Shown piece after piece: positions 44,409 to 46,973 of a stretch of 50,509 nucleotides of DNA. The stretch's first letter is position 1. Every line of letters starts with the position of its first letter. The notes beneath the pieces were generated by a model. It saw only the letters and a list, made by a program, of their open reading frames with translations, was not told the origin of the DNA and did not search any database. Source of the stretch: Escherichia phage PhiR11_1_star. Where the stretch lies: the sequence record PV340548.1. One strand, written 5' to 3'. The position numbers and the translations under genes were made by a program.

Positions 44409-45533
44409 TTAATCGGTAAATTCATAGTTTGGCCGCATTGAGAAACGCCACAGAGGCAGGCCTCCCCCTTTGTAATCATCAGGGATGGTTACCGTGAAAA
44501 GTCTGACATTCTGCCGGGTGTCAACTGACCTGATCTGGCTGTCGTGTACAGTCTGCTCGTTAAAGGCCGACGTGACCAGCGAACTCAGCGTACCTATAAA
44601 GTCGAAACCCTGTCTTTTGTAATTTTCGTCGTCTTCCGGGGAAAATGTGTATCGGATGCTCTCAAGCTGACCATCAGTGAATATTGCCTCCGATCCGGGG
44701 CAGAGCCACTCTCCGTAGCGCATCAGATGAAACGCCGTGTTCATTTCAAATTTATCCGTTACTTGTCTGTCATTGCAGTAAATTTTAATCTCGCCAATTG
44801 TAAAATGGGCGATGCCTTCGGGACTAACTGAAACTTCTTTGGTCCGGTCGGGGATAAGCTCAAAAACCAGATCGGGTTCTGTTGCTATCGATAGGTCGCC
44901 CAGCAGGTACATCTCACTTTTTGCGAGCGCCGAGGCCGGCGTCAAGGTATGTTCACGCTCTAGCTCCTTCATTGAGGAGCGTGCAACCAGCGCCCACCGG
45001 CGCAGCATCCTGATGTAGATGGCATAATAAACTGGAATACCATGGAGCTCACCGTACTTTTCAACCTTATCACTGTACGATTTCTTCAGGCGATAATCGT
45101 CAGCCACGTCATCCGCGTTAAAGTTTTTTACTTCCACAAAGATCTGACGGCGATCCTTCAGTATAATGCGATAGTCAGGTGCCACCAGATCGGGATCGGC
45201 TGACATCAAGTCTCCGGCGTCTTCCTGTTTAAGAAACTGGCAGTGGTTCAGTGCGGCGCAAACGTGTTTAAATAGGTTTTCTATTCTTTTCCCGTTCAGC
45301 AGAATTGGATTCTGATGGGAAGCGATTAATGACGTGGTGACCTTTTGTATAAAGTCATCCTGGTGCTCGGGGTTTTTAATATCGTAATTATAGATCTGGC
45401 CCAACGAGGAAAAAAGCTCAAAGGCTTCAAATCGTTCGGGATTCCTCTTGATTCTTTCCATTAATGACTCCGCAGCTAATAAATACAACGAAATGAGATC
45501 ACTTGTTTCTCTGAAGTTACCTGAAAACTGCAT
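44409..45533 (-). CDS. hypothetical protein with a PD-(D/E)xK nuclease-like motif
   Basis: 374-aa ORF; segment APDYRIILKDRRQIFVEVKNF fits the D...(D/E)xK active-site pattern of restriction-endonuclease-fold nucleases; 69 bp downstream of the FRG gene on the same strand. Confidence 0.55.
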   Translation of the reverse strand: MQFSGNFRETSDLISLYLLAAESLMERIKRNPERFEAFELFSSLGQIYNYDIKNPEHQDDFIQKVTTSLIASHQNPILLNGKRIENLFKHVCAALNHCQFLKQEDAGDLMSADPDLVAPDYRIILKDRRQIFVEVKNFNADDVADDYRLKKSYSDKVEKYGELHGIPVYYAIYIRMLRRWALVARSSMKELEREHTLTPASALAKSEMYLLGDLSIATEPDLVFELIPDRTKEVSVSPEGIAHFTIGEIKIYCNDRQVTDKFEMNTAFHLMRYGEWLCPGSEAIFTDGQLESIRYTFSPEDDENYKRQGFDFIGTLSSLVTSAFNEQTVHDSQIRSVDTRQNVRLFTVTIPDDYKGGGLPLWRFSMRPNYEFTD

Positions 45534-45602
45534 TCTGCACGGCGATTAAAGCGGCTATGGGCCCACGCTGGCACACAGGCGTGCCGTGCGACTAAAGCGC
45601 TA

Positions 45603-46973
45603 TCAGATTCGTCCATCGTATAGTTTTGCAATTTCCGTAGCAGCCTTCTCAATGCCGGGGTACACCGTGCTTTCGTTAATGCCAAGGCGGCTCAGTTGCT
45701 GCATCAGATGCTCTTTGTTTCTAATAACAAGCTTTTTGATGTTCAGCGTACTGAGTCCCGTTTCCGGTAGGTCTACGTTTTCACCAAAGAGCAGGAAAGC
45801 GCCTGATTGGGACGAAATACGTGCGTTACTGAGCCTACCTTTGACCACAACAATTTTACTTAGGTGGACCGGATCGATGATGCTTTTGAAATAGGACTTT
45901 TCATCGCGGATCAGGTGTAGTAGTTGTCCGCACTCTTCAGATTCGTTAAACGCCGGAATGGTGAGATTAGTTTTCAGGCTGCTTTTGAAACGAGAGGGAA
46001 GACGGGAAAGATTGGCTATGCAACTTACGGTATCCGAGTCGAAAAACTTAATTTCACTTTTGGGCGTCGTCAGAATAATGACGTTCCCGTCAATTTCATG
46101 ATTATTTTCATCGTGCTTGATTTTAGAGCAGGCAAAATATAGTGCGATCAAGGGGTTTGTTGATACATCAAGCAGGCGTGTGGGTAGGCCATAGTGTTGC
46201 ATGCGCACGAGTTTATCTAGCATATACCGATCGTCTTTGAACTCGGCGGGCTGCACGGTCAGCAGCTCTGTTATCATGTCCGATTCGTGATGGCGGTAGC
46301 GATAGTTACCCTGAGTATCCTTGCGGAACAGTGAGGGTTCCAGTTGGTAGCTGATGTCCGAGTGACCGCGGTAAAATACCTCTTCATCGTTTCCCTGTGT
46401 ATGATCGAGTATCACCTGCAAGTACTGATTGATATTCGCAATGATCTCTAGTTCTTCATTATTCTCCGGTGCTTCCGCACTCGCTGTTGCGGGCTCAACA
46501 TTAGAATAGCCTTCAAGGCCTAAAACACGCAGAATCTCATTTACGGAAATCTCTTTGACCGCCCAGAACGTTCTGTTTAGTCCGAAACTGCCCAGCTCCA
46601 GCTCACTTACGTACTCTTTATCGCTGGTTAAGGGCTTGTAGCCGATATCACTGGTAATCTCATAATCAAACGCTAAAACTTTTTCTCTGTTATACACGGA
46701 CGTACTTATCTTGCTGATTTTTCCTAAGCGGATGTGGCTGAAATAACCTATTTTTTCATTATCTTCATCGAATTCAATTTCCGGCTCGGACATAAATACA
46801 ACGGGCAGTTCCTGAAGAAAATGATAGGTTTTTTCAGTCAGGGGAAGCAATCTGCTTCTAAGAGACTCTGGCGTGGATTCGAAGAGTCGCGACACAGGGA
46901 AAGAGTCATTGCCACTGGGTTCAGAAAAAAAAGTGTAGTATTTGGGGGTTCCGACAACGATAAGATTCAGCAT
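45603..46973 (-). CDS. FRG-domain protein
   Basis: 457-aa ORF from the ATG at 46973 (GAGGA upstream); contains FYRGHSD...LEPSLFR...MQHYGLPTRLLDVSTNPLIALYFAC, the signature of the FRG domain as recalled; the ORF-track N-terminus (to 47039) is IS2-derived. Confidence 0.6.
   Translation of the reverse strand: MLNLIVVGTPKYYTFFSEPSGNDSFPVSRLFESTPESLRSRLLPLTEKTYHFLQELPVVFMSEPEIEFDEDNEKIGYFSHIRLGKISKISTSVYNREKVLAFDYEITSDIGYKPLTSDKEYVSELELGSFGLNRTFWAVKEISVNEILRVLGLEGYSNVEPATASAEAPENNEELEIIANINQYLQVILDHTQGNDEEVFYRGHSDISYQLEPSLFRKDTQGNYRYRHHESDMITELLTVQPAEFKDDRYMLDKLVRMQHYGLPTRLLDVSTNPLIALYFACSKIKHDENNHEIDGNVIILTTPKSEIKFFDSDTVSCIANLSRLPSRFKSSLKTNLTIPAFNESEECGQLLHLIRDEKSYFKSIIDPVHLSKIVVVKGRLSNARISSQSGAFLLFGENVDLPETGLSTLNIKKLVIRNKEHLMQQLSRLGINESTVYPGIEKAATEIAKLYDGRI

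What the first reader, a model, noticed from the sequence alone, without database searches (positions are those of the whole stretch)
44409..46973. Two-gene cargo cassette: FRG-domain protein plus PD-(D/E)xK-like protein, a candidate uncharacterised anti-phage system
Two co-directional minus-strand genes 69 bp apart sit in the non-essential region between the tail-fibre genes and attP, where lambdoid phages carry accessory genes. The 457-aa product carries the FRG signature (FYRG...QHYGLPTRLLDVSTNPLIALYFA) and the 374-aa product a nuclease-like PD...ExK segment (PDYRIIL...FVEVK). Neither resembles any lambda b-region gene I know, and I do not recognise this pairing as a named defence system.
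Basis: partly seen in the sequence, partly recalled or inferred. Interest (0 to 1): 0.85.

Follow-up and report, generated by a model that had tools for sequence, protein, structure and literature searches.

The report
Stacked prophage defence-candidate genes, loosely paired
At the att-proximal end of a lambda-like E. coli prophage sit an FRG/ADP-ribosyltransferase-like gene (already a catalogued but untested defence candidate) and an unannotated Hjc-like nuclease gene; they have travelled together in one lineage, but each also persists without the other, so they look like stacked single-gene modules, not an obligate two-gene system.

Summary
Both genes are real and both motifs hold.

**FRG gene (45603-46973, minus strand, 456 aa)**
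- It matches Pfam FRG (4.6e-22).
- It also matches PADLOC's single-gene candidate PDC-S15 (7e-99), so it is catalogued, though I found no experimental work.

**Second gene**
- It starts at the conserved ATG at 45461. That makes it 350 aa, not 374, and the gap 141 bp, not 69.
- It has no Pfam, NCBIfam, PHROG or significant PADLOC match, yet the family holds about 1,180 clusters at 50% identity.

**Is it a pair?**
- FRG lies directly upstream of close gene-B relatives (65% identity or more) in about ten lineages, and the two co-diverge.
- No FRG was found with any of about 95 distant gene-B loci, and no gene B with any of 80 species-representative FRG loci.
- FRG alleles 78-81% identical lack gene B in 18 E. 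coli genomes.
- Gene B stays intact where FRG was cut by an IS, replaced by a RES gene, replaced by Gabija, or rearranged.

The neighbours are defence genes. A third, HEPN-like cargo gene and an IS2 complete the block.

Verdict: a small defence-island stack. A cooperative pair is not excluded.

The parts
45603..46973 (-). FRG-domain protein gene (456 aa), a PADLOC PDC-S15 single-gene defence candidate
   Evidence: ORF. Pfam FRG 4.6e-22. PADLOC PDC-S15 7.3e-99 over residues 171-452. phrog_4962 over the full length, 7e-85. At least 2,797 homologous clusters at E<=1e-10. GAGGA Shine-Dalgarno 8 nt upstream of the ATG.
46524..46973 (-). N-terminal domain of the FRG protein (residues ~1-150): beta-rich, candidate PUA-like (EVE/YTH/ASCH-type) nucleic-acid reader
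45618..46448 (-). FRG domain region (residues ~176-452): ART-superfamily-like fold, predicted NAD+-using effector
45570..45585 (-). Stem-loop just after the FRG stop codon (GGCAC-GCCTGT-GTGCC), with no U-tract
   Evidence: A hairpin at this position is kept with different stem sequences in related loci: GGGCATAC/GTATGCCC in L118, GGCATACAG/CTGTATGCC in L110, ACAGGC/GCCTGT in L121. It is deleted in Serratia L014. The terminator scan does not call it. Its function is unknown.
44409..45461 (-). Gene B (350 aa from the conserved start): unannotated two-domain protein with an Hjc-like PD-(D/E)xK nuclease and an unknown C-terminal domain
   Evidence: Start codon and RBS conservation. No hits in Pfam, NCBIfam or PHROGs, and only an insignificant PADLOC hit, E=0.013. 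The family holds 1,182 50%-identity clusters at E<=1e-3, almost all 340-360 aa.
44952..45308 (-). Nuclease core of gene B (residues ~52-170), with E61, K78/E80/D81, P95-D96 and E110-V-K112
44412..44951 (-). C-terminal alpha/beta domain of gene B (residues ~171-350), fold unassigned
43117..43932 (-). Third cargo gene (271 aa), HEPN-like and low in GC, part of the same conserved block in E. coli
   Evidence: ORF. GC is 29-38% against 44-51% for the other two genes. Pfam HEPN_RiboL-PSP 7.6e-6, 26.4 bits, below the 28.4 cut-off. An Rx4H motif (IRHKVVHD) is visible in the translation. It is present with the pair in 28 of 28 E. coli genomes but absent next to the pair in Serratia, L110 and L117.
47004..48333 (-). 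IS2 (1,331 bp; insC/insD on the minus strand) inserted 30 bp upstream of the FRG start codon, with a 5-bp target duplication GTTTC
   Evidence: Homology with the uninterrupted loci L001 and L002 breaks at 47003 and resumes at 48333, and the inserted segment is 99.9% identical to an IS2 copy in L002. The insertion is also present in phage PhiR11_1.

Best explanation
This is a small stack of independent single-gene cargo modules at the att-proximal end of a lambdoid prophage. It is most likely a mini defence island, not an obligate two-gene system.

Module 1, the FRG protein. I infer that it pairs an N-terminal sensor domain with a C-terminal NAD+-using effector. The sensor is possibly an EVE/YTH-like reader of modified or foreign nucleic acid. 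The effector is an FRG/ART-like domain. On infection it would either deplete NAD+ or ADP-ribosylate a target, stopping phage replication.

Module 2, gene B. I infer a Mg2+-dependent DNA endonuclease with an Hjc-type PD-(D/E)xK core. Its conserved C-terminal domain would confer target choice or regulation. It would cut invading or branched replicating DNA.

Module 3. A HEPN-like putative RNase.

What is shown: the domains, the motifs, the family sizes, the genomic contexts, and the gain/loss pattern. FRG and gene B became neighbours once, in the ancestor of the FRG clade that is 74% or more identical, and have since been co-transferred as a 2.6-kb cassette. Each has survived intact after loss of the other.

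What is inferred: the defence role, the enzymatic activities and the sensing step.
For: Identity of the parts:
- FRG: Pfam and PADLOC PDC-S15 matches.

Independence of the two genes:
- No gene B lies within 6 kb of any of 80 FRG loci from species-representative genomes.
- FRG neighbours are heterogeneous, with 58 singletons among 85 neighbouring ORFs.
- 18 E. coli genomes carry a 76-80% nt-identical FRG gene without gene B and without a remnant of it.
- Tatumella and Serratia sp. DD3 FRG genes (78% aa identity) likewise lack gene B.
- No FRG lies near any of 72 metagenomic gene-B loci at 49% identity or less; 44 of these have at least 1.5 kb of upstream sequence.
- The same holds for 8 viral contigs and for the Morganella, Aeromonas, ICE and other loci.
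- Gene B is intact where FRG was truncated by an IS3-family element (L011), replaced by a RES gene leaving a 21-aa FRG remnant (L120), or replaced by Gabija (L195-197).
- The 141-bp spacer is poorly conserved, gene B has its own Shine-Dalgarno sequence, and a stem-loop follows the FRG stop codon.

Defence context:
- Type I R-M and AbiE beside the block in L001.
- TerB, a BrxC/D-type ATPase, a DEAD helicase and an SF1 helicase in Serratia.
- DUF4238 in L111.
- ApeA in L117 and L194, AbiJ in L147, and HerA and PHP-AAA proteins elsewhere.
- Gabija in L195.
- Distant gene-B relatives in the variable regions of MOBH conjugative plasmids and of an ICE tra operon.
Against: Signs of a link between the two genes:
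- In the gene-B clade that is 65% or more identical, FRG is directly upstream and co-directional in about ten distinct lineages across different hosts and elements.
- The identities of the two genes track each other: 99/99, 94/95, 91/93, 82/79, 87/76, 79/81, 66/77.
- Loci with gene B occur in every subclade of the FRG tree. That is longer linkage than is typical for unrelated neighbours in defence islands.
- Two of the four replacements upstream of gene B are again ART-superfamily genes: a divergently oriented FRG only 40% identical in L111, and a RES-domain protein in L120.

Limits of the evidence:
- No experiment shows defence for either protein.
- In this window IS2 separates FRG from its native upstream region, so expression here is uncertain.
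Confidence: 0.55

Rival explanations
1. FRG and gene B form a cooperative two-gene system in this lineage. The ART-type protein senses infection. It then either makes an NAD+-derived signal or ADP-ribosylates a nucleic acid, and the nuclease recognises this through its C-terminal domain and degrades DNA. In FRG-only and gene-B-only lineages each protein would keep a weaker or different stand-alone activity.
For: - Adjacency is stable and the two genes co-diverge across about ten lineages and several hosts and elements.
- Where the canonical FRG is missing, an ART-superfamily gene twice takes its place. One is a RES gene in the same position and orientation in L120, whose gene-B region is 94% nt-identical to that of the FRG-bearing L198. 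The other is a 40%-identical FRG gene placed divergently in L111.
- The cited literature lists RES and Frg ART domains among NAD+-processing, signal-generating enzymes of immune systems (PMC9503650).
- Gene B has a conserved, unassigned C-terminal domain that could be a ligand sensor.
Against: - Co-occurrence fails in both directions outside the one clade.
- Gene B is also found intact downstream of Gabija and of an IS, so two of the four replacements are not ART genes.
- FRG-only alleles are abundant. A 78%-identical Klebsiella cluster has 192 member sequences, and FRG-only loci occur in 18 E. coli genomes.
- The genes are not translationally coupled and the spacer is not conserved.
- PADLOC models PDC-S15 as a single gene.
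- The N-terminal region of the RES protein is unrelated to the FRG N-terminal domain.
Confidence: 0.25
2. The genes serve the mobile element itself, not defence. Gene B would be a junction-resolving or recombination nuclease for phage, plasmid or ICE DNA metabolism. The FRG protein would be an ART-type modifier of host or competitor factors, for example in superinfection exclusion or host takeover.
For: - The closest folds to gene B are the Holliday-junction resolvases Hjc and RecU.
- Gene-B homologues occur inside phage, ICE and conjugative-plasmid backbones.
- One locus has gene B close to RusA and the Q antiterminator.
- The carrier element is recorded as a phage with K-12 MG1655 named as host, so the cargo is tolerated by a productive phage.
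Against: - Distribution is sporadic: 28 of 5,426 complete E. coli genomes carry the pair.
- The genes sit in accessory hotspots, not within replication or recombination modules, and the neighbouring genes are defence genes.
- Gene B is three times the size of Hjc, has an extra domain, and shares only 8-14% identity with it.
- FRG homologues are mostly chromosomal island genes and are catalogued as a defence candidate.
Confidence: 0.12
3. The pair is a toxin-antitoxin-like addiction module in which one protein neutralises the other. The toxin would be either the ART-like protein or the nuclease.
For: - RES-type ART toxins and nuclease toxins are common in toxin-antitoxin systems, and a RES gene occupies the FRG position in L120.
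- The two genes are tightly linked in one clade.
Against: - Each gene persists intact without the other in several lineages. An unneutralised toxin would not be tolerated in this way.
- Both proteins are large and multi-domain, and neither looks like a small antitoxin.
- The genes do not overlap and show no sign of coupling.
Confidence: 0.05

Closest known systems
PADLOC phage-defence candidate PDC-S15 (FRG-domain single-gene candidate)
   Same: The FRG protein matches 14 PDC-S15 HMMs, best 7.3e-99, over residues 171-452. It occurs as a stand-alone gene in variable islands.
   Different: The PADLOC models cover only the FRG region. The 170-residue N-terminal domain of this subfamily is outside them. 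PDC-S15 is a computational candidate, and I found no published phenotype.
ART-superfamily NAD+-using conflict effectors (RES toxins such as ParT, DarT, diphtheria-toxin-like ARTs; the Frg clade as proposed by the Aravind group)
   Different: No sequence-level match to any solved ART. I did not map the catalytic triad. Foldseek hits are non-significant. The substrate (NAD+ hydrolysis or protein, DNA or RNA ADP-ribosylation) is unknown.
Reader-effector fusions of type IV restriction (EVE-HNH VcaM4I, YTH/EVE-like McrB N-terminal domains, MspJI)
   Same: The N-terminal domain's best structural matches are EVE, YTH and ASCH domains and McrB N-terminal domains. The architecture is a reader followed by an effector in a single polypeptide.
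Hjc/RecU archaeal-type Holliday junction resolvases (PD-(D/E)xK)
   Different: Gene B is 350 aa with an N-terminal helical extension and a 180-residue C-terminal domain that Hjc lacks. Identity is 8-14%. There is no Pfam Hjc hit. It is sporadic mobile-element cargo, not a core recombination gene.
Single-gene or nuclease-based defence modules found in the same islands (ApeA, AbiJ, Gabija, DUF4238)
   Same: They share the genomic niche and the stacking pattern.
   Different: There is no homology to them. Gene B has no significant PADLOC hit (best E=0.013).
Thoeris-type logic (an NAD+-processing sensor produces a signal that activates an effector)
   Same: This is only an analogy for the cooperative reading: an NAD+-using enzyme gene sits next to an effector gene, and an ART-type partner (FRG, or RES in its place) recurs upstream of gene B.
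   Different: There is no TIR, SLOG or Macro domain, no evidence of a signal molecule, and both genes stand alone in most lineages.

Membership tests
Pfam FRG (PF08867) | Profile match above the curated gathering score | tested here: met
   79.2 bits against a cut-off of 25, E=4.6e-22, residues 198-289.
PADLOC PDC-S15 | Match to the PDC-S15 HMMs | tested here: met
   14 models hit; the best are 7.3e-99 and 1.7e-98, covering residues 171-452.
PADLOC PDC-S15 | Single-gene organisation (no obligatory conserved partner) | tested here: met
   None of 80 FRG loci carries gene B. There is no recurrent neighbour family, with 58 singletons among 85 neighbouring ORFs.
ART (ADP-ribosyltransferase) superfamily | ART split beta-sheet fold | tested here: inconclusive
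ART (ADP-ribosyltransferase) superfamily | Catalytic H-Y-E or R-S-E type triad positioned in the NAD+ pocket | not tested
   R202, H204, S214, H260, Y261 and several acidic residues are invariant, but I did not map them onto an ART active site.
ART (ADP-ribosyltransferase) superfamily | NAD+ consumption or ADP-ribosyl transfer | not testable with these tools
   This needs a biochemical assay.
PUA-like readers (EVE/YTH/ASCH) | PUA-like beta-barrel fold | tested here: inconclusive
PUA-like readers (EVE/YTH/ASCH) | Sequence or profile membership in EVE, YTH or ASCH families | tested here: not met
   No Pfam hit at E<=10 for three N-terminal domains. No PDB sequence hit with the domain profile.
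PD-(D/E)xK nuclease superfamily | Alpha-beta-beta-beta-alpha-beta core fold | tested here: met
PD-(D/E)xK nuclease superfamily | Catalytic E (helix), D (strand 2) and (D/E)xK (strand 3) | tested here: met
   E61 is nearly invariant. P95, D96, E110 and K112 are invariant in 40 sequences, and they lie on helix 52-71 and just before and on strands 97-101 and 106-114.
Hjc Holliday-junction resolvase family | Small (~120-140 aa) single-domain protein with sequence-level family membership | tested here: not met
   Gene B is 350 aa with two extra regions. There is no Pfam hit at E<=0.1. Identity to Hjc structures is 8-14%.
Two-gene defence system (FRG + nuclease) | Reciprocal, phylogenetically broad co-occurrence of the two genes | tested here: not met
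   From FRG to gene B: 0 of 80 loci. From gene B to FRG: 0 of 72 at 49% identity or less, and 0 of 8 distant viral contigs. The pair is seen only in the gene-B clade at 65% identity or more.
Two-gene defence system (FRG + nuclease) | Operon-like coupling (short or conserved spacer, overlapping genes) | tested here: not met
   The spacer is 99-146 nt and variable. Gene B has its own Shine-Dalgarno sequence. A stem-loop follows the FRG stop codon.
Defence-island cargo | Enrichment of known defence genes among neighbours in unrelated genomes | tested here: met
   Neighbours include type I R-M and AbiE, BrxC/D with TerB, DUF4238, ApeA (twice), AbiJ, Gabija, and HerA and OLD-like ATPases. This is qualitative; I did not compute a formal enrichment statistic.
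HEPN (RiboL-PSP) for the third gene | Profile match above cut-off and an Rx4-6H motif | tested here: inconclusive
   26.4 bits against a cut-off of 28.4. The motif R-HKVV-H is present in the translation.

The most novel reading that the evidence does not exclude
In the gene-B clade at 65% identity or more, the Hjc-like nuclease works with an interchangeable ART-superfamily partner: FRG, or RES in its place.

The partner would sense infection, perhaps through an EVE/YTH-like reader of modified phage nucleic acid, and use NAD+ in one of two ways. It could make a small-molecule signal that the nuclease's unassigned C-terminal domain detects. Or it could ADP-ribosylate phage DNA, which the nuclease then cuts.

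That would be a Thoeris-like or mark-and-cut immune logic built from an ART enzyme and a resolvase-fold nuclease, and no such system has been described.
Probability: 0.15. Interest if true: 0.8.

Novelty: new member of a known kind. Interest (0 to 1): 0.45.

Why it matters
**The FRG protein.** FRG-domain proteins are widespread. At least 2,797 90%-identity clusters are related to this one, and 332 loci were found among about 100,000 species genomes. They are catalogued as a defence candidate and predicted to be ART-type NAD+ effectors, but I found no experimental test. This copy sits in a prophage identical to a deposited phage, PhiR11_1, whose record names E. coli K-12 MG1655 as host, which makes it convenient to test. 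If the EVE/YTH-like reader assignment holds, it would be a type-IV-restriction-like sensor joined to an NAD+-using effector instead of a nuclease.

**Gene B.** It defines a sizeable family, about 1,180 clusters at 50% identity, with no model in Pfam, NCBIfam, PHROGs or PADLOC. It combines a resolvase-type nuclease with an unknown domain and recurs in defence islands, prophage ends, ICEs and conjugative plasmids. That makes it a plausible new single-gene defence nuclease.

**A practical point.** Tight adjacency and co-divergence in close relatives can look like a system even when wider sampling shows that the genes are separable.

Tried and rejected
- **The 374-aa start for gene B.** Rejected in favour of ATG 45461.
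- **The 478-aa GTG start for FRG.** Rejected because it lies inside IS2.
- **Sequence-level annotation of gene B.** No hits in Pfam, NCBIfam or PHROGs; PADLOC gave only PDC-S05 at E=0.013, which is not significant. Its C-terminal half alone also gave nothing.
- **PDB sequence relatives.** Profile searches for gene B, FRG and the FRG N-terminal domain gave nothing meaningful.
- **Promoter and terminator scan of 42900-47100.** The counts are no higher than in shuffled sequence, and there are no sites in the intergenic spacers. It cannot decide between one and two transcription units.
- **Pectobacterium L011 as an independent stand-alone gene B.** Rejected, because an FRG 3' remnant cut by an IS3-family element lies upstream.
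- **A shared N-terminal sensor between the L120 RES protein and FRG.** hhalign was negative.
- **Gene-B remnants downstream of FRG-only close relatives.** None found.
- **Literature on experimental FRG work, PDC-S15, PF08867, PhiR11 and PV340547.** Nothing relevant beyond the Aravind-group prediction. The primary paper, PMC7685563, is not held.
- **A conserved alternative partner for distant gene-B relatives.** None found. Neighbour clusters are lineage-specific: resolvase, histidine phosphatase, UmuC and others.
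Full report
**1. What is in the sequence**

The region holds three co-directional minus-strand ORFs, not two:
- 45603-46973, the FRG gene, 456 aa from the ATG.
- 44409-45533, gene B.
- 43117-43932, a third gene of 271 aa.

GC content is 44-51% over the first two genes and falls to 29-38% over the third. That suggests the third gene was acquired separately.

An IS2 of 1,331 bp occupies 47004-48333, flanked by a GTTTC duplication. It begins 30 bp upstream of the FRG start codon. 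The otherwise identical loci L001 and L002 lack it. The FRG ATG has a GAGGA box 8 nt upstream.

- All 43 homologues found by the word-indexed search are about 350 aa and cover 94% of the query.
- The ATG at 45461 has a GGAG box 8 nt upstream that is conserved in Serratia and Pectobacterium.
- The sequence around 45533 is not conserved.

The spacer between the two genes is therefore 141 bp.

**2. Where it sits**

- The block is 100% identical to Escherichia phage PhiR11_1 (PV340547.1). That record names K-12 MG1655 as host, annotates all three genes as hypothetical, and also carries the IS2.
- The first 20 kb of the window also match that phage and other lambdoid phages.
- In strain LC-1302-2020 the block lies at a prophage end directly beside ybhB-bioA, the lambda attB flank.
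- In strain AREA_494 it lies between tail-fibre assembly genes and an integrase remnant, followed by type I R-M and AbiE genes.
- 28 of 5,426 complete E. coli genomes carry the block.

**3. The FRG protein**

Database matches:
- Pfam FRG matches at 4.6e-22.
- PADLOC-DB matches 14 models of the single-gene candidate PDC-S15, best 7.3e-99. All cover only residues 171-452.
- PHROG 4962 (unknown function) covers the whole protein.

A review from the Aravind group places the Frg domain in the ART superfamily. It describes it as a potential antiviral effector that might act as a NADase (PMC9503650). The primary paper was not available. I found no experimental study.

The tool gives no residue ranges.

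**4. Gene B**

- There are no hits in Pfam, NCBIfam or PHROGs, and only an insignificant PADLOC hit.
- The alignment of 40 homologues shows invariant G57, R59, K78, E80, D81, P95, D96, E110 and K112, with E61 nearly invariant.
- The AF2 model is confident (pLDDT 91.4, pTM 0.87).
- Each of these matches aligns only about 80-130 residues.
- I infer that residues ~171-350, which are well modelled and conserved, remain unassigned.

An exhaustive HMM scan shows that the family is much larger than the word-indexed search suggested. It found 1,182 50%-identity clusters at E<=1e-3 and 536 at E<=1e-30. Nearly all are 340-360 aa and match over the full length.

The protein is not a member of the Hjc family proper, given its size, its extra domains, 8-14% identity and the lack of a profile match.

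**5. Are the two genes a system?**

Starting from FRG:
- A scan of one genome per species returned 332 relatives. None of the best 80 loci (33-78% identity, 6 kb on each side) contains a gene-B homologue.
- The genes next to FRG are heterogeneous, with 58 singletons among 85 co-directional flanking ORFs.
- Within E. coli, 18 further genomes carry an FRG gene 76-80% nt-identical (78-81% aa) without gene B. One lies next to a DEAD/DEAH helicase near an e14-like prophage end. Another lies at the end of an integrative element beside yhaC. No gene-B remnant is present.

Starting from gene B, the family splits in two.

Close relatives (65% identity or more) have FRG directly upstream and co-directional in:
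- E. coli;
- three Serratia assemblies;
- L110;
- L116, L117, L118, L121 and L122;
- L198;
- probably two further contigs, judged by matching contig lengths.

The identities of the two genes track each other across these loci.

Distant relatives (49% identity or less) never have FRG nearby:
- 0 of 72 metagenomic loci, of which 44 have at least 1.5 kb upstream;
- 0 of 8 viral contigs;
- none in the Morganella, Aeromonas, ICE and other loci.

A neighbour-joining tree of FRG proteins places loci with gene B in every subclade of the clade at 74% identity or more. Loci without gene B are nested among them. The simplest reading is that the pair formed once in that clade's ancestor and gene B was lost at least twice.

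The reverse also happened. Gene B remains intact where:
- FRG was truncated by an IS3-family element, in Pectobacterium L011.
- FRG was replaced by a 410-aa RES-domain gene, leaving a 21-aa FRG remnant, in L120. L120's gene-B region is 94% nt-identical to that of the FRG-bearing L198.
- Gabija genes take the upstream position, in Raoultella-type contigs L195-197.
- A FRG gene only 40% identical lies divergently upstream, in L111.

The spacer is variable (99-146 nt), and gene B keeps its own Shine-Dalgarno sequence. A stem-loop with lineage-specific stem sequences follows the FRG stop codon in most loci, without a U-tract. The consensus promoter and terminator scan was uninformative.

**6. Interpretation**

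Reciprocal separability, heterogeneous neighbours and the lack of coupling favour two autonomous modules that have been co-transferred as a compact cassette. With the HEPN-like third gene they form a mini defence island at the prophage end. I give this reading a confidence of 0.55.

The defence assignment itself rests on three things:
- The PADLOC candidate status of FRG.
- The nature of the domains: an NAD+-using ART-like domain, a nuclease and a HEPN-like protein.
- Repeated association with known defence genes: type I R-M and AbiE, BrxC/D with TerB, DUF4238, ApeA twice, AbiJ, Gabija, and HerA and OLD-like ATPases. Distant gene-B relatives also lie in variable regions of MOBH conjugative plasmids and of an ICE.

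A cooperative pair remains possible; I give it 0.25. The linkage has lasted unusually long, and two of the four replacements upstream of gene B are again ART-superfamily genes (RES, and a distant FRG). That is suggestive, but the numbers are small and the other two replacements (Gabija and an IS) do not fit.

Functions in mobile-element DNA metabolism (0.12) and toxin-antitoxin addiction (0.05) fit the data less well.

**7. State of the locus in this window**

IS2 lies 30 bp upstream of the FRG start codon, with its transposase genes in the same orientation as FRG. The native upstream region is displaced by 1.3 kb. Whether FRG and gene B are expressed here, for example by read-through from IS2, was not tested.

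**8. Novelty and score**

- The FRG gene is a new member of an already catalogued but untested candidate class.
- Gene B is an unannotated family that fits the known pattern of nuclease-based cargo in defence islands.
- No new principle is demonstrated.
- The system is easy to test because the carrier matches a deposited phage whose record names E. coli K-12 MG1655 as host.

Interest: 0.45.

Noticed in passing
window 43117-43932 (-): A third cargo gene (271 aa) with much lower GC (29-38%). It has a sub-threshold Pfam HEPN_RiboL-PSP match (7.6e-6) and an Rx4H motif (IRHKVVHD), but no PADLOC, NCBIfam or PHROG hit. It accompanies the FRG-gene B pair in all 28 E. coli genomes but not in other genera.
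   Followed up: partly
window 47004-48333: IS2 is inserted 30 bp upstream of the FRG start codon, with a GTTTC target duplication and in the same orientation as FRG. It is also present in phage PhiR11_1 but absent from otherwise identical chromosomal loci, so it may silence the cargo genes or drive them.
   Followed up: partly
window ~48975-50509: Homology to the chromosomal locus L002 ends near 48995, which is the presumed att core; the PhiR11_1 record, by its 41-bp offset, ends about 20 bp earlier. Beyond this lie a 230-aa C-terminal fragment of a lambda-type integrase (49065-49757, minus strand) and an IS1 insA-like ORF (49870-50145). The integrase next to the cargo block therefore looks truncated by an IS.
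   Followed up: no
window 45570-45585 (-) and the equivalent positions in L110, L116, L117, L118, L121 and L011: A stem-loop immediately after the FRG stop codon is retained with different stem sequences in different lineages and lacks a U-tract. It is deleted in Serratia L014. Its function is unknown (a transcript 3' end or stabiliser?).
   Followed up: partly
L120:2166-3398 and 3525-3587: A 410-aa RES-domain protein (Pfam RES 2e-13) occupies the position of FRG upstream of gene B. 63 nt of the FRG 3' end are left behind. The near-identical gene B in L198 still has FRG upstream. One ART-superfamily gene has recently been swapped for another.
   Followed up: partly
L195-L197 (Raoultella-type contigs), about 1088-4896 in L195: Gabija-like genes (an OLD/TOPRIM ATPase and a UvrD helicase) lie directly upstream of an 82%-identical gene B, 104 bp away, with no FRG. 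Only the ~60 bp of DNA nearest to gene B is shared with the FRG-linked loci. This hints that gene B carries its own regulatory region.
   Followed up: partly
L117:4797-6230 and L194:1054-2511: ApeA (ApeA_NTD1 plus HEPN_Apea) lies immediately downstream of gene B in two loci whose gene-B copies are only distantly related (91% and 36% identity to the window).
   Followed up: no
L100, L107, L145, L150 (for example L100:5381-6004): In a group of phage-like contigs, a histidine-phosphatase-family gene (His_Phos_1, 4.8e-22) overlaps the start of a distant gene-B homologue inside a structural-gene region. This may be a lineage-specific partner.
   Followed up: no
plasmids such as NZ_CP072987.1 (L114) and the ICE-like locus L016: Gene-B homologues at ~42-48% identity are carried by 43 plasmids, mostly conjugative, in Providencia, Proteus, E. 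coli and other genera. L114 is typed MOBH/MPF_F, and there gene B lies next to a restriction endonuclease and a UvrD-like helicase. Another homologue lies between traC and traU of an ICE-like element.
   Followed up: partly
window 41501-42871 (+): Just upstream of the cargo block are a 346-aa tail-fibre-type protein with a C-terminal Peptidase_S74 chaperone domain and a 100-aa ORF of unknown function that matches phrog_1443.
   Followed up: no
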